This document shows positions 4,100 to 48,272 of a stretch of DNA of 64,000 nt, piece by piece (the stretch's first letter is position 1; each line of letters starts with the position of its first letter). The notes beneath the pieces were generated by a model. It saw only the letters and a list, made by a program, of their open reading frames with translations. It had not been told where the DNA came from and searched no databases. The translations under genes and the position numbers were made by a program. The DNA comes from a phage. The DNA is taken from NCBI GenBank assembly GCA_025812035.1, contig GCA_025812035.1_4719.1; one strand, given 5' to 3'.

Positions 4100-4446
4100 T
4101 CCACATTCTCCGTTATATGCTTTAAACTGTTACGTATACTTCTCAATCGATGGTTAAATCCGGAACGATAACATTTCCGTTCAAACCGTGCCGCTCGCGA
4201 TTTATTCGCCTGATGAAGCTGTTCGTTCACCTGCGACGCTATACGTAAACGCTCTAATAAAGACCTCAGCCGAACGACAACCAACGGCTGTTCTTTCACC
4301 TTCTCTAGTTTGAGTAAATTGTCAACACGAAACTTTATTTCGATAATCTGATTCCTGTTTTTGCGGTACTGATGAATATACCAACATCGACGAAAATAGG
4401 CGATGCTAAACATAGGGTAGGTCCTTTTCAACGCCACCTCCAACAA
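4096..4446 (-). CDS. hypothetical protein (116 aa)
   Basis: complete ORF, minus-strand array. Confidence 0.5.
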   Translation of the reverse strand: MLEVALKRTYPMFSIAYFRRCWYIHQYRKNRNQIIEIKFRVDNLLKLEKVKEQPLVVVRLRSLLERLRIASQVNEQLHQANKSRAARFERKCYRSGFNHRLRSIRNSLKHITENVE

Positions 4447-4657
4447 TAAAACGGATTAGGTGCTTTATGGTATTTATAAATACCCACTTTCTTCCGTCTG
4501 CCTTTACCCGGTCCTCGTTTAATACGTTTGTTATAAACACGACCCAAATATCGAGTGACGATAGATCGGGATAAATACATCGGATCGATATAATCCAGAG
4601 TACCCGCTTCTGTTTCTTCGAGACATTGCATACGTAACTCCTCTTTCCTCTAAGAAG

Positions 4658-4864
4658 TCAATCCAGCATAAGCCATGGCATCGCTTTCGCGATAGAATCC
4701 ACCGCAGCATTTGCTATCCTTCGTTCAGTCATTGGCACCACGTGCGCAACGAACCGTTTCCCTTTATTGCAACCTTTCTTGTGTTTTCCTTTGACTAAAC
4801 GAACACCGATCATGTCGTTGATAACATGATTTAGTATGTAGCGCTGTAGAGAATTAATCATCAC
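4658..4864 (-). CDS. hypothetical protein (68 aa)
   Basis: complete ORF, minus-strand array. Confidence 0.35.
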   Translation of the reverse strand: MMINSLQRYILNHVINDMIGVRLVKGKHKKGCNKGKRFVAHVVPMTERRIANAAVDSIAKAMPWLMLD

Positions 4865-42958: not shown

Positions 42959-43183
42959 TTAGCAATGGTTGTTAGTTGCTTCTATTTCGTCAAGATAAGG
43001 TTCTACGTCATCGCCCTCCACGAATTCGTTGAACCAGCAGTCAATGGTAGAAATAACCGGTGACTGGTGTTCACATTTCTTAGATACCTTAAAAGGTACG
43101 TTATTATCCATCATACCGAGTTCGGGTCGAAAACGCCCGAAATGTTTCGCAGTCCAAATGTCTGGGACGATATGGTTGTTCAT
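42959..43183 (-). CDS. RNA polymerase beta' N-terminal fragment, exon 3 (begins MNNHIVP..)
   Basis: MNNHIVP..ELGMMDNNV parallels beta' MAVHVP..ALMMSTNNI directly after the catalytic DGD; preceded by G at 43184. Confidence 0.6.
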   Translation of the reverse strand: MNNHIVPDIWTAKHFGRFRPELGMMDNNVPFKVSKKCEHQSPVISTIDCWFNEFVEGDDVEPYLDEIEATNNHC

Positions 43184-43574
43184 CGTGGTGTTCAGCATGA
43201 GTCGCTACCTCATACCCGCAGCTTTACCTGCAGCTTCCGGTGTTACCGGAATGTCCAGAATACATCTTATCCATATTCCAAATGGAACGTAGGACTTCCG
43301 CGCTGGATCTCGCTTGAGACCACGTATTCGTTGAACCTGCGTTGTTTCACATTCTTGCAAACAAGAATGCCGTATTGCTACGCAACAACCAGGCTGCTGA
43401 TCGAACATTGTCATGTACGGTAGGCATCCCCGAAGGGACTGTCATTGAAGCCGCGTACATCCGCTACCTTGTTTCTACCTTATCGGTTCCTCTTACGAGG
43501 CGTAGCGGCCTTAGCCCTTCCCAGCAATTCACGGAATCCAAGCTCTTCCTTTCGGAAGGCAGGGCCTATGATTA
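43184..43574 (-). ncRNA. candidate ORF-less self-splicing intron 2 (group I-like)
   Basis: P-like GAAUUGCUGGGAAGGG (43515..43530) and Q-like GAUCAGCAGCC (43392..43402); starts after U, ends with G; several local hairpins; P1 and P7 not resolved by eye. Confidence 0.45.
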
Positions 43575-43587
43575 AGCGTCACCGTCG
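43575..43587 (-). CDS. RNA polymerase beta' micro-exon (13 nt, c-GAC-GGU-GAC-GCU, encodes DGDA)
   Basis: only placement that rebuilds NADF-DGD-A-MNNHIVP in frame with U at both 5' splice sites and G at both intron 3' ends. Confidence 0.5.
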
Positions 43588-45028
43588 CTTACGTGCACCG
43601 ACGTTTATTAACTCATGGTTATCCACTGAAATACGGCGTTAGGGAAATAATCCTTCTTGCCGCGTTTTGAGATTTGCAATGCCATATTACTCGGAGACAA
43701 TCTGTAATGCCATGCTGCTTCATCGATAGAACTAAACTTCTTTGTTTCGCCGTTATCAAAGATGATTTTCAACGCTAGTTTAGGTAAATCGTCTTCCGTT
43801 TCTACTAGTTCGAAAGAATCGATATTCTCTGCCAGCGTTAACGGATCAACAGGTAATATCAGCCAACCAGCACGCTGCAATCCTCCACGTAGACTAATTT
43901 GTTTATTCAACGCAGGGGTAGCCATGCCAACTAACTTAGCAGCCAGCTTGCGGTCTTTAATATAAAGACGATAATCTCCGGTATTATTAATAGCATACAC
44001 ACCAAAGTTATTGAACGATACCTTTCCAGCATCGGAACTAGTAAAGCCTACAAAGTCGTGGCTGTCGGTAGCCACGTCGTATTTAAATGCTAATGGCTTG
44101 TTTCGACTGCCGCTAAGATACTTCTTGGCTGTAGATACCGATATGTTGAGATATCGTCCAATAGCATTCAAACTTTCTAGTTCGATGATTTCTCCTGTCA
44201 ATATGTCCTTTAACCGAACATTACCCATCGGTATTGGTGGTTTACCGACATAACCCAATTCACGATATGCGTGTTTCAAGTTATCTGAATCAGTAGCCCA
44301 TTCCAAATTTTCTAGTCTGTTATCCCAACGCACTCCATTAAGATGATTAGGGACACGACGGATTATACCTGACGTCGGATCTGGGTTAAATGTTTCAAGG
44401 ACGATCTGATGATGGTATTTCACTTTGTTGTTCCTAGTGAAAGCGCGATAGTTGTTTTTGCCCGACTTGGGTGGTTCAGTACGAAACAACACTGTCAGAC
44501 TAGACACATCTACTATCGTACCGTTCTTATTAACAACGATACCATCAAAACCATTAACAGGACGATAATCAGACAAACAATCTTCAGAAATTGCCTGTCC
44601 AACTAAAGGTTCACTCAATTTGACCTCCTTTATAAAAGAAGTCGGTGCACGTAATTATCGACTATATCTTCATCCTCGTTGCGAGGAGTCTCCCGTTTTG
44701 GTCTGTGTTTAACAGAGCCTACTCTACTCGACATCGCGTCTTTCGATAGTCTGTGAGCACACATCTTAACGAACATTCGTGGATTCCTAAGCAGGTGAAC
44801 GTTCTTGTTGAGATGCTTCGCTGCGGATTATTCCCGTCCTACCTCTTTTACCATACCCAGTTCATTACGCTGGCCCTCATCTGTGTCACCACGATGAGTT
44901 GGTGTGTAGTCCGATTACAGAAACTTCCCGTCAATTAGAGAGTTTTAACTACGTTCCTGTTACCAGAAACCCGACTCCGACGATATCAATTAAATCAACG
45001 TAAATTATTGATTTAATTGAAGAAACTG
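43588..45028 (-). mobile_element. group I intron 1 with embedded HNH homing endonuclease gene
   Basis: IGS GAGUCGG (44971..44977) pairs with exon end CCGACUU with terminal U-G; P AAUUGACGGGAAG (44924..44936), Q AAUCCGCAGC (44820..44829), R ACAGACUAUCG (44744..44754), S AAGAUAUAGUCG (44659..44670); 12-bp stem 44641..44652 with 43591..43602 loops out the ORF; ends with G at 43588. Confidence 0.7.
43608..44618 (-). CDS. HNH homing endonuclease (intron-encoded), UUG start
   Basis: HHQIVLETF..NHLNGVRWDNRLENLEWATDSDNLKHA HNH motif; AAGGAGGT RBS before UUG; lies entirely inside intron 1. Confidence 0.75.
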   Translation of the reverse strand: MSEPLVGQAISEDCLSDYRPVNGFDGIVVNKNGTIVDVSSLTVLFRTEPPKSGKNNYRAFTRNNKVKYHHQIVLETFNPDPTSGIIRRVPNHLNGVRWDNRLENLEWATDSDNLKHAYRELGYVGKPPIPMGNVRLKDILTGEIIELESLNAIGRYLNISVSTAKKYLSGSRNKPLAFKYDVATDSHDFVGFTSSDAGKVSFNNFGVYAINNTGDYRLYIKDRKLAAKLVGMATPALNKQISLRGGLQRAGWLILPVDPLTLAENIDSFELVETEDDLPKLALKIIFDNGETKKFSSIDEAAWHYRLSPSNMALQISKRGKKDYFPNAVFQWITMS

Positions 45029-46284
45029 AAGTCGGCATTATAACCTTTCAAGATCATCACGCTTAACCCGATGGTGTTATCCTGCGGATCGCGTTTAACC
45101 TTGGTGATTTCAAGACATTGGTTACTGCTTCGGTCAAGTGATGGATTTCGAACAAAACCACACACAATCCCATCAAACGGTGTATCAGCAATAAGCTCAT
45201 CGTGCAGCTCGCTCATCATCGGATGATAATTACGGACATGTTCCGCAACGAACGCACGTGCTGCTCTTGGTGAATAACCACGATGGAATAACTTGGATTG
45301 GATATGTTCTTTATTGGTTAATGTAAATGGCGCGTATGGGAAATGCAGATGATAATAACGATGGTTCGCTGTTATCGAACTGATTACGGTACGCGTGGTG
45401 AATGGATGTAATGTACCTAATATGTTTTTACGTGTGATACCTTTCTTCTTACCGATGAACTCATCGAAAATCGCCGAGTGGTACTGCAGCAGCTTCAGTT
45501 GTACTTTCGCCATCCAGTTTTCTTTCTTTCTGGCGCTCAAAGGTGTTGTTGGGTGATAGATACTATTCAATGTACCGATAGCATCGATCGCACCTTCCAT
45601 TTTGCTATCTGCATAACGACCGGTTGGTGTATTCTCGATAACGAACATCATGGCGGCAGGAAAACTGATATACTGGCTGAAGAACTTATCGCGATGAATG
45701 CGGGTGAATTCTCGTAGCGTATCAACTTTCTCCGTGTTCTTCGGTCCGCGTAACGTAGGTCCTTTATACAAGATCTCCATGATGCGATCGAAGTTCTGTA
45801 TAAAGCTATTTATCCCACGTCGTATCCCGAATACATCGAATTGCTGCTCCAGATAGTTCTTGAGTTCGATGGGTCGTTTTACGTTTGGACGGTAACTGGC
45901 ATCAATGAGCCACGTCATCGTTTCAAAGCTTTTGATATTCAACTCGCTTGCCAGCACGAGATGGACCAACGGGTTAATAAACGCATCAATTCCTTCAGGA
46001 ACACGCGCCCAAACCGTCGAACGAATCTCTTGTTCTGCTGGGTAGGTTACAACCGTTTTACAGTTTGGACACACCGTGCCAAGCAGCTCACCACGATTGT
46101 AGAAACCACATCCACATTGTGGTGTGATATCCAACGTATCGCTGGAGTAAACACGGGTGATAAAACTGTTTAATTTCTTCTTCTCTTCGACGACTTTTGT
46201 GTCGTAATCATTCAACAAAATAGGCGTAAAAGGAAGTTCTGCGAGCTGTCTATCGAAACTCACGATATCGAGCATGATGGCCAT
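45029..46284 (-). CDS. RNA polymerase beta' N-terminal fragment, exon 1 (ends ..YNADF)
   Basis: zinc finger CGCGFYNRGELLGTVCPNCK and ..NPSL.R...Q.....IGL..ILKGYNADF parallel E. coli beta' up to NADF; unspliced frame stops 5 codons after NADF. Confidence 0.75.
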
Positions 46285-46376: not shown

Positions 46377-48272
46377 TTAGAACAGGTTGAATGCCCCACC
46401 CATGTTGTTACCACCAACGTTCGGACGATCGCTGCGTGCGTAGATGCTACCGGAGATATTACCCAGACCACGAGCACGTGCTGCCATGTTACCACGAACA
46501 GCGGTACCCGCCAGATGCTGGATATTCTCAGGACGGATGGTGAAGCCAGCTTCAGCAGCTGCTTCAATCAACGCAGCAAGCGCTTGCGGTTCGAAGTCGT
46601 AACGCATTGCCCAACCGGTTTGTTCCCAGCTACCAGACAGAACACGATCGATGATTTCGTGACGAGCGACAACACGCTGAGACATCGACATATCGGTACG
46701 GTCGAAGCTGTCTTCCCATGCTTCTACGGTATCCGGGTTAGTGATGTTCATCATGTACAGATCGTCCATATCGCGAATATCGTGACGGTTACCATCCTGG
46801 TGGTTGTAGTGACCCAGCGGGATACGGTTACCGGTAGCGTAGACCAGCGGTTGACCGTATTGATATTTCTTGCTGAAGCAGCCCAGGGTAGTATCATCGA
46901 AGGCACGGAAGAGTGCTTTGTAACCTTCAGAGACTTCCCGAACATCAGCCTCAACATTACCCGTATAGATCTTCTCAGCCGCCGGGATCATACGCAACAG
47001 CCAGCTGTATTCGCCTTCTTCCGGCACGTCGATAGAAATCAGCAGGGACGGATACAGTACCTGTTGCAGGAACTTGTAAATCTGCTCATTGGTTTGAGTA
47101 GACAGATCCAGCGGTGCGGTAACTTCCGGATCCAGCACCATCGCCAGAGCACCCGGGTTATGCGGACCGATACCACGAGCAGCGTTGCTGATTAAAGACT
47201 GCGCCCATGCCATGCCGCTGTTCAGCGTAGCAATGGTACCAATCAGACCCAATACAAAAGTATTCGGTGTGAATGCGTCCAGCTCCAGCGGGTAAGCGCT
47301 GGTCATCACGTAACGCGGCTGGTATTGTACAGTCGGCGGTACCGGATAACCGTTAACCAGAACAGGACCTTGGTTGAAGGTCGGGTTCTGCGGGCTGTAG
47401 GTCAGGTCGATATAGCCGGTAGTTGCGACCAGACGCTGCTGGCTATCGTAATCGCTCATCGCTTGACGGATGCGGTTAGAGATAGTTACAGTGATGTCGG
47501 AACGCACTGGGTTACCAACGATATCGCTGTCCTGCATACCGCTGGTGTTATACTGAACGCTGCTGATCGGCTGATCGCTTGCCATCATGCCCAGGTTGAA
47601 CTGCGGCAGGCCCAGTTTATCACCGAGACGGATTTCGATTGCGGTTTGGATTGCGTTATCTGCAGCAGACAGCAGGGTGGTTGCCAGGTGTGCAGATTCA
47701 GCGGTGATTTCATTGGTCACCACAGCCAGACCAGCGATACGAACAGTACCATTAGCCTTGCCACCAATAGCCGCATACATTGCCGCCATGACTTCGTTGA
47801 TGAACGTGCCGTTCAGGTTATCAACCCAGGTACGCGGTACCAGAATGTTACCATGCGGACCTTGTTCTTCACGACGCGGCAGCGGAGCCAAACCGGCAAC
47901 CAGCGGAAGCACATAACCGAAGAAGTGGTTATGATCACCAACTTTCGCACCACTCATAACCACCAGGGTCGGATACGGTACACTGTACTGACCAGGATCG
48001 ACAGTCACCATGATGAAGTCGTCTTTAAAGCCTTTATCTTCCAGTTCTTTTTCCATCAGACGACGGAGGTTCAGTACTTGCTCAGAACCGGTGTTACGGC
48101 TAATACGACGACTCAGTGTACGGTTGATCGTACGCATCGTATGAGTCACTTTAGGCTGGCCAGCAAAGTCTGCAGCGGTTTCCAGCGCTTCATCTGCACG
48201 TTGTGCGGTGCGGGTTTCAGCTGCACGAATTTCTACATTATCGTTACCGTTTTTACGTACGTCTAAGCCCAT
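46377..48272 (-). CDS. abundant 631-aa protein; candidate nuclear-shell (chimallin-like) or major structural protein
   Basis: very strong codon bias; disordered N-terminus and Gly-rich C-terminal tail; conserved promoter-like motif upstream and strong GC hairpin downstream. Confidence 0.6.
   Translation of the reverse strand: MGLDVRKNGNDNVEIRAAETRTAQRADEALETAADFAGQPKVTHTMRTINRTLSRRISRNTGSEQVLNLRRLMEKELEDKGFKDDFIMVTVDPGQYSVPYPTLVVMSGAKVGDHNHFFGYVLPLVAGLAPLPRREEQGPHGNILVPRTWVDNLNGTFINEVMAAMYAAIGGKANGTVRIAGLAVVTNEITAESAHLATTLLSAADNAIQTAIEIRLGDKLGLPQFNLGMMASDQPISSVQYNTSGMQDSDIVGNPVRSDITVTISNRIRQAMSDYDSQQRLVATTGYIDLTYSPQNPTFNQGPVLVNGYPVPPTVQYQPRYVMTSAYPLELDAFTPNTFVLGLIGTIATLNSGMAWAQSLISNAARGIGPHNPGALAMVLDPEVTAPLDLSTQTNEQIYKFLQQVLYPSLLISIDVPEEGEYSWLLRMIPAAEKIYTGNVEADVREVSEGYKALFRAFDDTTLGCFSKKYQYGQPLVYATGNRIPLGHYNHQDGNRHDIRDMDDLYMMNITNPDTVEAWEDSFDRTDMSMSQRVVARHEIIDRVLSGSWEQTGWAMRYDFEPQALAALIEAAAEAGFTIRPENIQHLAGTAVRGNMAARARGLGNISGSIYARSDRPNVGGNNMGGAFNLF

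What the first reader, a model, noticed from the sequence alone, without database searches (positions are those of the whole stretch)
42959..46284. RNA polymerase beta' gene split inside the catalytic NADFDGD loop by two introns flanking a 13-nt micro-exon
The beta' N-terminal ORF (46284..45029) matches bacterial beta' from the zinc finger to ..YNADF and then hits a stop 5 codons later. The codons GAC GGT GAC GCT (DGDA) lie 1.44 kb downstream at 43587..43575, immediately after the HNH endonuclease ORF, and the continuation MNNHIVP..ELGMMDNNV (compare E. coli MAVHVP..ALMMSTNNI) begins at 43183. Joining exon 1 (ends ..gac uU), the micro-exon (c gac ggu gac gcU) and exon 3 (aug aac..) restores NADFDGDAMNNHIVP in frame, with U before each 5' splice site and G ending each intron. 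Two self-splicing introns 13 nt apart, targeted to the metal-binding loop of the polymerase, would be an unusual arrangement.
Basis: partly seen in the sequence, partly recalled or inferred. Interest (0 to 1): 0.9.

Follow-up and report, generated by a model that had tools for sequence, protein, structure and literature searches.

The report
Two self-splicing introns, 13-base exon

Summary
The window is 98% identical to Escherichia phage Goslar.

**Gene layout (minus strand):**
- Exon 1, 46284..45029, ends ..NADF.
- Intron 1, 45028..43588, is a group I intron carrying an HNH/NUMOD1 endonuclease ORF.
- The micro-exon cgacggtgacgct lies at 43587..43575.
- Intron 2, 43574..43184, has no ORF.
- Exon 3 is 43183..42959.

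**Evidence:**
- Joining the exons gives a 497-aa protein colinear with phiKZ gp55 (PDB 7OGP), the beta'-N subunit of the non-virion RNA polymerase.
- Intron 1 has an Rfam hit (47.8 bits), a 7-bp P1 and a 5-bp P10. Its guide sequence covaries with synonymous exon changes.
- Intron 2 gets no Rfam hit in the window. It still has the full group I core, including the P7 pseudoknot, supported by covariation: 25 of 93 pairs show compensatory changes.
- Nineteen Goslar-like genomes show four insertion sites within about 30 nt, in seven combinations.
- Relatives empty at site 1 or site 2 read ..gat ttc gat ggt gac gct atg aac.. exactly as predicted.

**Not shown:** RNA-level splicing.

**Novelty:** the kind is known. 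Phage Twort has a 23-nt exon between two group I introns, and mitochondria have mini-exons. This is a new, unannotated member.

The parts
45029..46284 (-). Exon 1 of the nvRNAP beta'-N gene (phiKZ gp55 homologue), codons 1-418 plus 2 nt of the Phe codon. Ends ..aau gcc gac uU.
   Evidence: Aligns to PDB 7OGP chain A. Pfam PF00623, 36.8 bits.
43588..45028 (-). Intron 1 (1441 nt), a group I intron with its endonuclease ORF in a 3' extension. Ends ..guaaG.
   Evidence: The Rfam RF00028 core hit covers 45019..44642 (47.8 bits, E 1.7e-10). An ORF-less 376-379-nt version sits at the same site in L003 and L018.
44971..44982 (-). Internal guide sequence of intron 1. CGUCG (44982..44978) forms P10 with the first 5 nt of the micro-exon. 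GAGUCGG (44977..44971) forms P1 with exon 1 ccgacuU (45035..45029), with a U.G wobble at the splice site.
   Evidence: In L003 and L018 the exon is cagauuU and the guide is GGAUCUG, giving two fully compensatory changes.
43608..44618 (-). Intron-encoded HNH homing endonuclease ORF (336 aa). TTG start preceded by aaaggagg.
   Evidence: Pfam HNH_3 31.1 bits (cutoff 24.8). NUMOD1 24.0 bits (cutoff 22.8). Weak I-HmuI NUMOD-like match. Annotated as HNH endonuclease in Goslar.
44641..44652 (-). 5' arm (ACGUGCACCGAC) of a perfect 12-bp stem that closes the ORF-containing loop and brings the 3' splice site back to the core.
   Evidence: The stem and ORF are absent together in the ORF-less intron 1 of L003 (..GUCGAUAACAG|).
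43591..43602 (-). 3' arm (GUCGGUGCACGU) of the same 12-bp stem, 3 nt before the 3' splice site.
43575..43587 (-). 13-nt micro-exon c gac ggu gac gcU. It supplies the last base of Phe and the codons for Asp-Gly-Asp-Ala of NADFDGDA.
   Evidence: Conserved with synonymous changes in L003 and L020 (cgacggggaugcu). Contiguous with its flanks where a site is empty (L016, L018, L019, L030).
43184..43574 (-). Intron 2 (391 nt), an ORF-less group I intron. Starts uaaucauaGGC.. and ends ..accacG. Core helices: P3 43536..43530 / 43302..43296; P4 43526..43521 / 43400..43395; P7 43329..43324 / 43263..43258; guide GGC 43566..43564.
   Evidence: Manual core assignment, reproduced by the Rfam alignment of the L003 copy. 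Covariation. Model R1 cross-hits Rfam-validated introns. The orthologue L022 i2' scores 25 bits in Rfam.
43337..43392 (-). Variable P6 extension of intron 2 (56 nt here). Goslar and L003 carry a different 20-nt hairpin in its place.
   Evidence: The long form is also in L024.
42959..43183 (-). Exon 3, aug aac aac cau.. (MNNHIVPD..NNHC*), 74 codons plus stop.
   Evidence: Annotated in Goslar as a separate 79-aa hypothetical protein.

Best explanation
The single gene for the N-terminal beta'-like subunit of the phage's non-virion RNA polymerase (the homologue of phiKZ gp55, next to the chimallin gene) is interrupted inside the NADFDGD Mg-binding loop by two independent, unrelated group I introns.

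**Proposed mechanism**
- The pre-mRNA is transcribed as one unit.
- Each intron folds into its own ribozyme and removes itself by the two guanosine-initiated transesterifications.
- Intron 1 recognises its 5' exon through a 7-bp P1 (ccgacuU/GAGUCGG). It aligns the micro-exon through a 5-bp P10 (CGUCG/cgacg).
- Intron 2 needs only the last 3 nt of the micro-exon (gcU/GGC, extended by 2 intron-side pairs). It aligns exon 3 through a 4-bp P10 (UCAU/auga).
- The 13-nt exon therefore carries both recognition elements without overlap, and the two reactions can occur in either order.
- Ligation yields mRNA for a 497-aa protein with an intact NADFDGDAMNNH.

**Mobility**
- Intron 1 carries an I-HmuI-like HNH/NUMOD1 homing endonuclease. 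Its ORF sits in a loop closed by a 12-bp stem just before the 3' splice site.
- Intron 2 has no ORF. It probably spreads by co-conversion with its neighbour.

**Shown versus inferred**
- Shown: anatomy, homology, covariation, and empty-site alleles.
- Inferred: the splicing chemistry, the order of splicing, endonuclease activity, and hitch-hiking.
For: - **Identity of the locus.** The window is 98.3% identical to Goslar, whose annotation already marks part of intron 1 as Intron_gpI.
- **Restored protein.** It matches 7OGP chain A at E 1.7e-74, colinear through ..lkgynadfdgdamnnhivpd... Uninterrupted homologues P0002 and P0003 are 65% and 62% identical.
- **Intron 1.**
  - Rfam gives 47.8 bits, E 1.7e-10.
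  - P1 and P10 are verified.
  - The guide sequence covaries with synonymous exon changes in L003 and L018.
  - ORF-less versions end ..AACAG|cgacgg at the same 3' splice site.
- **Intron 2.**
  - Unconstrained folding recovers the nested P3/P4/P6/P8 topology.
  - The Rfam alignment of the L003 copy uses the same P3, J3/4, P4, P6, J6/7 and P7 as the manual assignment (16.7 bits, E 0.059 for the targeted stretch).
  - L022 i2', at the same site, scores 25 bits over the full model (E 0.021).
  - A model of the intron 2 core hits two Rfam-validated introns in register: L011 (54.8 bits in Rfam) and L006 (87.8 bits in Rfam), at E about 1e-4.
  - On six family members, 95.4% of cells pair, against 37-45% when partners are slid. 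25 of 93 pairs carry changes on both sides, including 3 of 6 in the P7 pseudoknot. No shuffle out of 500 reaches these values.
- **Empty sites**.
  - L016 reads ataatgctgatttcgatggggacgctatgaacaac.
  - L019 reads gactttgacggtgacgcgatgaacaac.
  - L030 has intron 2 alone after gatttcgatggtgacgcT.
  - L018 has intron 1 alone before cgacggggacgcgatg.
- **Spliced protein on record.** The exact Goslar spliced 497-aa protein exists as a called gene on a Logan contig (P0077).
- **Conservation.** Intron cores differ at 9 of 705 positions between the window and L003, against 22 of 194 four-fold degenerate exon sites (Fisher p = 2.6e-9).
Against: - No RNA data. Splicing is not observed.
- Intron 2 gives no Rfam hit in the window even at E <= 10. 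No intron 2 family member reaches the gathering score.
- Intron 1 is 2 bits below the Rfam gathering score.
- Intron 2's P1 has only three exon base pairs.
- Intron 2 starts with an in-frame UAA, and a GAGG lies 9 nt before an upstream AUG (43198). A split expression (423 aa + 79 aa) is therefore formally possible.
- Low intron divergence could reflect recent homing rather than selection on the ribozyme.
- The contig carrying P0077 could not be fetched, so it may be an intron-less genome rather than a transcript.
Confidence: 0.9

Rival explanations
1. Only intron 1 splices. The 391-nt element is a splicing-dead intron relic, and the subunit is made as two polypeptides: 423 aa ending ..NADFDGDA* at the UAA that opens the element, plus a 74-79-aa piece started at AUG 43198 or 43183. 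The two pieces then assemble. Jumbo-phage RNA polymerases are already split into several chains.
For: - An in-frame UAA lies directly after gcu. A GAGG lies 9 nt upstream of AUG 43198.
- Goslar annotators called a separate 79-aa ORF.
- Intron 2 has no Rfam hit in the window.
- Split RNAP genes, possibly derived from intron activity, are discussed for jumbo phages (PMC7598289).
Against: - The ribozyme core is intact and shows compensatory changes, including in the P7 helix.
- U at the 5' splice site and G at the 3' end are retained.
- The GAGG and the upstream AUG lie inside the conserved P9.2 hairpin. They are absent from the orthologue L022 i2' and from intron B (..GAAGUAGCGAUUCAUACUG..), which have no start signal before exon 3.
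- The intron is about 8 times more conserved than neutral exon sites.
- Relatives with site 2 empty make one continuous chain.
Confidence: 0.05
2. The locus is a decaying pseudogene. The DGDA-coding 13-mer is a remnant, and polymerase function is supplied from elsewhere.
For: The gene is annotated in fragments, as hypothetical proteins.
Against: - tblastn of the spliced protein finds only this locus in Goslar, in two places that correspond to exon 1 and exon 3.
- The gene sits in the conserved position next to chimallin in all relatives.
- Between the window and L003 there are 43 synonymous and 4 non-synonymous codon differences, and the micro-exon changes are synonymous.
- From my own knowledge, not tested here: Goslar is a viable laboratory phage.
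Confidence: 0.02
3. The tandem arrangement is used for regulation. A fraction of transcripts skips the micro-exon (5' splice site of intron 1 joined to the 3' splice site of intron 2), giving a frameshifted, inactive product and so tuning polymerase levels. Exon skipping of this type is seen for the 23-nt exon of Twort orf142.
For: Exon skipping by tandem group I introns is documented in Twort and in engineered Tetrahymena pairs (PMC10136302). Here, skipping would join ..gacuu to augaac.. and shift the frame.
Against: - In Twort, the two introns flanking the skipped exon are highly similar (PMC10136302).
- In the engineered system, distinct P1/P10 elements suppress skipping.
- Introns 1 and 2 here are unrelated in sequence and have different guide sequences: CGUCGGAGUCGG versus UCAUAGGC.
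- Intron 1 and intron 2 each occur alone in relatives, so the pairing is not obligatory.
Confidence: 0.05

Closest known systems
Staphylococcus phage Twort orf142: three group I introns, with a 23-nt exon between introns 2 and 3 (Landthaler & Shub 1999, as summarised in PMC10136302)
   Same: A phage protein-coding gene with tandem self-splicing group I introns flanking a very short exon. The short exon has to carry the P10 partner of the upstream intron and the P1 partner of the downstream one.
   Different: The exon here is 13 nt (12 nt in the distant relative L011), against 23 nt in Twort. The two introns are unrelated to each other, whereas the Twort pair is highly similar and skips the exon. 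The target is the catalytic loop of an RNA polymerase. Splicing here is not experimentally shown.
Group I introns with HNH endonucleases in chimallivirus RNA polymerase genes: phiKZ gp72 and gp179, PhiPA3 gp210 and the intron in gp65-66 (PMC11620839, PMC12676376, PMC11077065)
   Same: Same phage family, same class of host gene (multisubunit RNAP subunits), and the same type of intron-encoded HNH endonuclease.
   Different: Those are single introns in other subunits or positions. The beta'-N catalytic-loop site, the second ORF-less intron, the micro-exon, and the multi-site polymorphism are not described in the papers I could search.
Mini-exons between organellar group I/II introns (exons shorter than about 4 codons 'occur regularly in mitochondrial genes', PMC10352661)
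   Same: Exons of a few codons flanked by self-splicing introns. They are routinely missed by gene callers, exactly as in the Goslar annotation.
   Different: Those are organellar, often protein-assisted introns. This is a lytic bacteriophage gene whose product is needed within minutes of infection.
I-HmuI / I-BasI-type nicking HNH endonucleases of SPO1, SP82 and Bastille DNA polymerase introns
   Same: HNH_3 plus NUMOD-type DNA-binding modules encoded inside a phage group I intron.
   Different: Only domain-level similarity was tested. The cleavage site, and whether it nicks or cuts both strands, are unknown.

Membership tests
Group I intron (intron 1, 45028..43588) | Conserved catalytic core (P3-P8 and P4-P6 domains, P7) recognisable by the family covariance model | tested here: met
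   RF00028 full-length match at 45019..44642, 47.8 bits, E 1.7e-10. This is 2.2 bits below the curated gathering score of 50, so it was not reported at the gathering threshold. The same element is annotated Intron_gpI in Goslar.
Group I intron (intron 1) | 5' exon ends in U paired with G of an internal guide sequence (P1). The 3' exon pairs with the adjacent part of the guide (P10). | tested here: met
   P1 is ccgacuU/GAGUCGG (6 Watson-Crick pairs plus the U.G wobble). P10 is CGUCG/cgacg. The two guide segments are contiguous. There are two compensatory guide/exon changes in L003 and L018.
Group I intron (intron 1) | Intron ends in G (omega-G) | tested here: met
   The intron ends ..guaaG|cgacgg in the window, and ..aacaG|cgacgg in the ORF-less copies.
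Group I intron (intron 2, 43574..43184) | Conserved catalytic core recognisable by the family covariance model | tested here: inconclusive
   - No RF00028 hit in the window at E <= 10.
- The L003 copy gives 16.7 bits over model positions 50-157 (E 0.059 for the targeted stretch).
- The L022 orthologue gives 25 bits over the full model (E 0.021).
- All are below the gathering score of 50.
- A bona fide-looking intron in L010 is also missed, so the model's sensitivity is limited.
Group I intron (intron 2) | Helices P3, P4, P5, P6, P7 (pseudoknot), P8 and P9 in canonical order, supported by covariation | tested here: met
   Alignment A5 of six family members gives 95.4% paired cells against 37-45% in the slid controls. 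25 of 93 pairs change on both sides, and no shuffle out of 500 matches this. P7 reads GAAUAC/GUAUUC, GAGUA/UACUC and GAUCAU/AUGAUC in the three variants. The core model R1 hits Rfam-validated introns in L011 and L006. Caveat: the structure was derived from one of the sequences, and the sequences are related.
Group I intron (intron 2) | U.G wobble at the 5' splice site in P1; P10; terminal G | tested here: met
   - The exon gcU pairs with GGC (43566..43564).
- Two intron-side pairs extend P1. One is compensatory in intron B (A-U to C-G).
- P10 is UCAU/auga.
- The intron ends ..accacG.
- The exon part of P1 is only 3 bp, which is weak.
- The L022 orthologue has C instead of U at position -1.
Group I intron (both) | Precise excision that restores the host reading frame | tested here: met
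   Tested at the DNA-comparative level only. Alleles empty at site 1 (L016, L019, L030) and at site 2 (L016, L018, L019) read the predicted junctions. The exact spliced 497-aa Goslar protein is on record as P0077.
Group I intron (both) | Guanosine-dependent self-splicing | not testable with these tools
   Needs in vitro transcription and splicing, or RNA from infected cells.
HNH homing endonuclease (ORF 44618..43608) | HNH nuclease motif plus DNA-binding modules, encoded within an intron | tested here: met
   HNH_3 31.1 bits (cutoff 24.8). NUMOD1 24.0 bits (cutoff 22.8). I-HmuI NUMOD-like 16.9 bits, below its cutoff. The ORF lies in a stem-closed loop of intron 1. Nuclease activity and target site were not tested.
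Jumbo-phage nvRNAP beta'-N subunit (phiKZ gp55 family) | Colinear homology to gp55, including the Zn-binding Cys motif and NADFDGD | tested here: met
   7OGP chain A: E 1.7e-74, query 21-476 against chain 41-495. PF00623: 36.8 bits (cutoff 25.3). Located directly downstream of chimallin, as gp55 is downstream of gp54.

The most novel reading that the evidence does not exclude
The catalytic loop of this gene is a battleground where at least four intron lineages compete for about 30 nt of DNA.

- Each insertion destroys or shifts the recognition site of a neighbour's homing endonuclease, giving immunity.
- ORF-less introns (intron 2, intron B) hitch-hike by co-conversion with an endonuclease-bearing neighbour 13 nt away.
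- The smallest allowed spacing (12-13 nt) is set by the need to fit the upstream intron's P10 and the downstream intron's P1 on one exon.

The seven occupancy states seen in 19 near-identical genomes would then be a snapshot of ongoing interference competition between co-infecting Goslar-like phages. This would resemble the PhiPA3/phiKZ case, but with several elements stacked at one site.
Probability: 0.35. Interest if true: 0.7.

Novelty: new member of a known kind. Interest (0 to 1): 0.5.

Why it matters
1. **Annotation.** In Goslar (NC_048170), a widely used model nucleus-forming phage, the catalytic nvRNAP subunit is annotated as a truncated 423-aa protein plus a 79-aa hypothetical protein, and the DGD codons belong to no gene. 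Knock-down, proteomic and structural work on this subunit needs the 497-aa model. The same unannotated interruptions occur in isolated phages (pEa_SNUABM_54, KpGz_1) and in many metagenomic chimalliviruses.
2. **Limits of standard screens.** A standard Rfam screen misses one of the two introns. Mini-exons, familiar from mitochondria, also have to be looked for in phage genomes.
3. **A natural series for experiments.** The Goslar-like population offers alleles with 13-, 18- and 26-nt exons between introns, introns with and without endonuclease genes, and empty sites. With these one can test the minimal exon context for group I splicing, co-conversion of ORF-less introns, and intron-mediated competition between co-infecting phages.

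Tried and rejected
- **Rfam at gathering threshold, whole window:** nothing. Both introns fall below the cutoff, so this negative result says little.
- **blastn of intron 2 against the phage collection:** only Goslar, plus a 42-nt chance-level match.
- **Internal repeats of intron 1 or intron 2 in the window:** none beyond the 12-bp stem. The two introns are not copies of each other.
- **Longer P1 for intron 2:** I looked for GG[CU]GU[CU]-type guides and found none. An extended pairing across a 2x2 internal loop is not supported, because L003 breaks it.
- **Alternative junctions for intron 2** (DGD|TMNNH and the other in-frame options): rejected.
- **First constrained fold of intron 2:** it mispaired P2 with P8. 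Two scripts had indexing errors. The structure was then written helix by helix.
- **MAFFT alignment of intron A with intron 2:** reliable only in the 3' domain, so intron A was left out of the covariation count.
- **Fully intron-less allele:** no match in IMG/VR, JGI metagenomes, complete E. coli genomes or plasmids.
- **Contig encoding P0077:** Two look-ups through neighbouring window proteins returned only long contigs, all intron-containing.
- **AR9 genome paper:** not in the held library.


Full report
**What the window is.** The region is 98.3% identical to Escherichia phage vB_EcoM_Goslar, a nucleus-forming jumbo phage. The minus strand carries, in order:
- the chimallin gene (48272..46377);
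- an ORF of 423 codons (46284..45013) annotated in RefSeq as 'RNA polymerase beta subunit';
- a stretch that Goslar's authors marked Intron_gpI;
- an HNH endonuclease ORF (44618..43608);
- a 79-codon 'hypothetical protein' (43198..42959).

In phiKZ the gene next to chimallin (gp54) is gp55, the N-terminal beta'-like subunit of the non-virion RNA polymerase.

**Checking the observation.**
- The 423-codon ORF follows beta'-like sequence to ..ILKGYNADF, then reads SFFN and stops.
- cgacggtgacgct lies at 43587..43575, and atgaacaac.. begins at 43183.
- Concatenating 46284..45029, 43587..43575 and 43183..42959 gives 1494 nt and a 497-aa protein containing YNADFDGDAMNNHIVPD.
- That protein aligns in one block, without a gap at either junction, to the solved phiKZ gp55 chain (7OGP_A, E 1.7e-74..LKAPNADFDGDQLNLTLMPD..).
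- It also aligns to uninterrupted metagenomic homologues of 65% and 62% identity (P0002 ..YNADFDGDAMNHH.., P0003 ..YNADFDGDEMNNH..).
- Within the 1845 nt separating exon 1 from exon 3 there is only one DGD-coding site on this strand, and it is the micro-exon.

**Intron 1 (45028..43588).**
- Rfam's group I model matches 45019..44642 over its full length (47.8 bits, E 1.7e-10). This is just under the gathering score of 50, which is why the default scan was empty.
- The guide sequence is one contiguous 12-mer, CGUCG-GAGUCGG (44982..44971). GAGUCGG pairs with the last seven bases of exon 1 (ccgacuU, with U.G at the splice site). CGUCG pairs with the first five bases of the micro-exon.
- In two relatives (L003, L018) the exon carries synonymous changes (gcc gac to gca gau). 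Their guide reads GGAUCUG, which restores all seven pairs through two double changes.
- The endonuclease ORF is not in the core. It follows P7' and sits in a loop closed by a perfect 12-bp stem (44652..44641 with 43602..43591), ending 3 nt before the terminal G.
- Relatives have an ORF-less intron 1 of 376-379 nt. It lacks both stem and ORF and ends ..GUCGAUAACAG|cgacgg at the same splice site.
- The ORF encodes HNH_3 and NUMOD1 domains above Pfam's cutoffs, with a weak I-HmuI-like module. It has its own Shine-Dalgarno (aaaggagg) and a TTG start.

**Intron 2 (43574..43184).** This is the weak point of a database-only reading, because Rfam finds nothing here even at E <= 10. The sequence nevertheless has the group I core in canonical order:
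- P3: UUCCGUG/CGCGGAA
- J3/4: AAU
- P4: UGCUGG/UCAGCA
- P5, with a large extension
- P6: GC..GU
- J6/7: UCAAC
- P7: GAAUAC/GUAUUC, as a pseudoknot
- an extra hairpin after P7
- P8, followed by three 3' hairpins and a terminal G

Supporting evidence:
- Unconstrained folding already returns the nested part of this topology.
- When the shorter-P6 copy in L003 is scanned alone, Rfam aligns it in exactly this register (16.7 bits, E 0.059).
- The copy at the same site in L022 scores 25 bits over the whole model.
- A covariance model built only from the intron 2 core hits two introns in distant phages that Rfam validates strongly. L006 scores 87.8 bits and L011 scores 54.8 bits in Rfam; the hits are in register at E about 1e-4.
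- The best evidence is covariation. The Goslar-like population contains diverged relatives of intron 2 (intron B and i2'). On the six-sequence alignment, 95.4% of pair cells are standard pairs, against 37-45% when partners are slid. 25 of 93 pairs change on both sides, and no shuffle out of 500 reaches these values.
- P7 itself reads GAAUAC/GUAUUC, GAGUA/UACUC and GAUCAU/AUGAUC in the three lineages.
- Between the window and Goslar, the only large difference is a swap of the peripheral P6 hairpin, 56 nt against 20 nt. That is how structured RNAs typically vary.

Caveats: the structure was derived from one member, the sequences are related, and the exon part of P1 is only gcU/GGC. That P1 is extended by two intron-side pairs, one of which is compensated in intron B. 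P10 is UCAU/auga.

**Empty sites: the nearest thing to a cDNA.** I retrieved 19 distinct Goslar-like genomes: the window, Goslar, and 17 assemblies from gut and other metagenomes and isolate projects. They show four insertion sites within about 30 nt:
- site A: aaa ggg U|au
- site B: aau gcU|gac
- site 1: gac uU|c gac
- site 2: gac gcU|aug

They occur in seven combinations:

| Combination | Genomes |
|---|---|
| 1(+HNH)+2 | 6 |
| A+1+2 | 4 |
| B only | 5 |
| A+1 | 1 |
| B+2' | 1 |
| A(+a different 323-aa ORF) | 1 |
| A(+ORF)+2 | 1 |

- Where site 1 or site 2 is unoccupied, the DNA reads exactly the predicted ligation product. L016 reads at aat gct gat ttc gat ggg gac gct atg aac aac. L019 reads gac ttt gac ggt gac gcg atg aac.
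- L030 has intron 2 alone and L018 has intron 1 alone, so each intron stands on its own.
- L003 has three introns separated by two 13-nt exons (ataatgcagattt and cgacggggatgct). Splicing all three gives a 497-aa protein differing from the window's at four residues.
- All five differences in codons 414-422 are synonymous.
- The exact spliced protein of Goslar is on record as a called gene (P0077) on an 8.8-kb Logan contig. I could not fetch that contig, so it is either an intron-less genome or an assembled spliced transcript.

**Selection.** Between the window and L003, 22 of 194 four-fold degenerate exon sites differ, but only 9 of 705 positions in the two intron cores do (p = 2.6e-9). Either the ribozymes are under strong constraint or the introns spread recently by homing. 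Both readings fit active elements rather than relics.

**How it most likely works.**
- One pre-mRNA is made, and both ribozymes fold independently.
- The 13-nt exon carries intron 1's P10 partner in its first five bases and intron 2's P1 partner in its last three. The two reactions therefore do not compete and can occur in either order.
- Exon skipping would join gacuu to augaac and shift the frame. It is unlikely to be frequent, because the introns are unrelated and have different guide sequences. Reports on Twort and on engineered Tetrahymena pairs link skipping to similar introns and shared splice-site elements (PMC10136302).
- The observed spacings between co-resident introns are 13, 13, 18 and 26 nt, and 12 nt in the distant relative L011.
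- The 5-nt (B+1) and 8-nt (A+B) combinations were never seen. This fits a lower limit set by P10 plus P1, but with 19 related genomes it is only a suggestion.
- Intron 2 has no endonuclease gene. Its frequent association with the HNH-bearing intron 1, 13 nt away, suggests hitch-hiking by co-conversion (inference; compare trans-homing in T4, PMC2790892).

**Wider distribution.** The same loop is interrupted in many other chimalliviruses:
- DFDG|D in L006 (Rfam 87.8 bits), L008, L010 and Erwinia phage pEa_SNUABM_54;
- NAD| in L009;
- DFDGD| in L004;
- just before ADFDGD in phage KpGz_1.

L011, only about 31% identical at the protein level, has two Rfam-validated introns (54.8 and 68.3 bits) flanking a 12-nt exon, gatttcgacggt (DFDG). 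The downstream intron has a perfect 6-bp P1, gacggU/GCCGUC. Micro-exons in this loop have therefore arisen more than once.

**Comparison with what is known.**
- Group I introns with HNH endonucleases in chimallivirus RNAP genes are established: phiKZ gp72 and gp179, PhiPA3 gp210, PhiPA3 gp65-66.
- Insertion at active-site codons is the expected pattern for homing elements.
- Tandem group I introns around a 23-nt exon are known in Twort.
- Mini-exons shorter than four codons are routine in mitochondria.
- I found no description of the Goslar beta'-N introns, the second intron, the micro-exon or the site polymorphism. I searched the Goslar genome paper, the Goslar cell-biology paper, the core-genome paper and recent reviews.

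The finding is therefore a correct, previously unannotated member of a known kind. Its features of interest are a very short exon that encodes the catalytic aspartates and a rich natural polymorphism.

**Verdict.**
- Observation: confirmed.
- Interpretation: supported, confidence 0.9.
- Splicing: not yet shown at the RNA level.
- Novelty: new member of a known kind.
- Interest: 0.5.

Noticed in passing
L003:1468-2590 (Logan SRR5130533); same layout in L020, L025, L029: A relative with 99% protein identity has three group I introns in the loop: A (366 nt), ORF-less intron 1 (376 nt) and intron 2 (355 nt). They are separated by two 13-nt exons, ataatgcagattt and cgacggggatgct. Splicing all three restores the 497-aa protein.
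   Followed up: yes
L015-L034 (Goslar-like assemblies), region homologous to window 43150..45080: There are four insertion sites within about 30 nt and seven occupancy combinations among 19 distinct genomes. None of the fetched genomes was free of introns. Combinations that would leave 5-nt (B+1) or 8-nt (A+B) exons were not seen.
   Followed up: partly
L011:5228-5937 (ENA ERZ27249479, a distant chimallivirus): An independent case: two Rfam-validated group I introns (54.8 and 68.3 bits) flank a 12-nt exon gatttcgacggt (DFDG). An IS605-type OrfB/TnpB gene lies about 1 kb downstream (L011:7019-8251).
   Followed up: partly
L022:4386-4403 and 4404-4760: The intron 2 orthologue in L022 follows an 18-nt exon, and its 5' exon ends in C (gaugcC|agagcc..). 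This gives a C-G pair instead of the canonical U.G at the splice site. Bases 4-6 of the intron repeat the exon's GCC.
   Followed up: no
L019:4393-4742 (intron B) compared with window 43184..43574 (intron 2): Intron B is a clear homologue of intron 2, but it sits 18 nt upstream, again directly after an Ala codon gcU. The shared 3-nt exon recognition (gcU/GGC) suggests the intron moved between two nearby GCU sites.
   Followed up: partly
L016:3354-4734 and L030: Intron A occurs with a different 323-aa ORF (faint I-HmuI NUMOD-like hit) inserted near its 5' end. Two different endonuclease genes therefore serve introns in the same loop.
   Followed up: no
window codons 414-422 (about 45045..45029 and 43587..43575) compared with L003: Five of the 43 synonymous codon differences between the window and L003 fall in the nine codons around the insertion sites. 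This looks like co-conversion tracts or selection on endonuclease or guide-sequence recognition.
   Followed up: partly
window 43337..43392 compared with L001:5928-5947 (approximate): The P6 extension of intron 2 is a 56-nt hairpin in the window (and in L024) but an unrelated 20-nt hairpin in Goslar and L003. The latter is almost identical to P6 of the L006 intron from a distant phage (AUCAGCAGCGAAGCUCC..GGAGAACGUUCAACGA).
   Followed up: partly
Protein cluster of P0001: Fragments of this gene are deposited as 'hypothetical protein' of Salmonella enterica, E. coli, Shigella and Enterobacter hormaechei, on contigs of about 240 kb. Goslar-like phage genomes are therefore common passengers, through carriage or contamination, in enterobacterial isolate assemblies.
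   Followed up: no
L014 (Erwinia phage pEa_SNUABM_54, MW879341: 228189-229564 approximate) and L013 (phage KpGz_1, MN871444): Isolated, deposited phages carry unannotated insertions in the same loop. In pEa_SNUABM_54 the insertion is at DFDG|D and includes a 334-aa ORF. In KpGz_1 an insertion of about 470 nt lies just before ADFDGD. Their beta'-N genes are annotated as fragments or not at all.
   Followed up: partly
window 43198..42959; Goslar gp185: The annotated 79-aa 'hypothetical protein' is exon 3 plus five codons read from the 3' end of intron 2. Its ATG and the GAGG upstream lie in the P9.2 hairpin and are not conserved in intron 2 relatives.
   Followed up: yes
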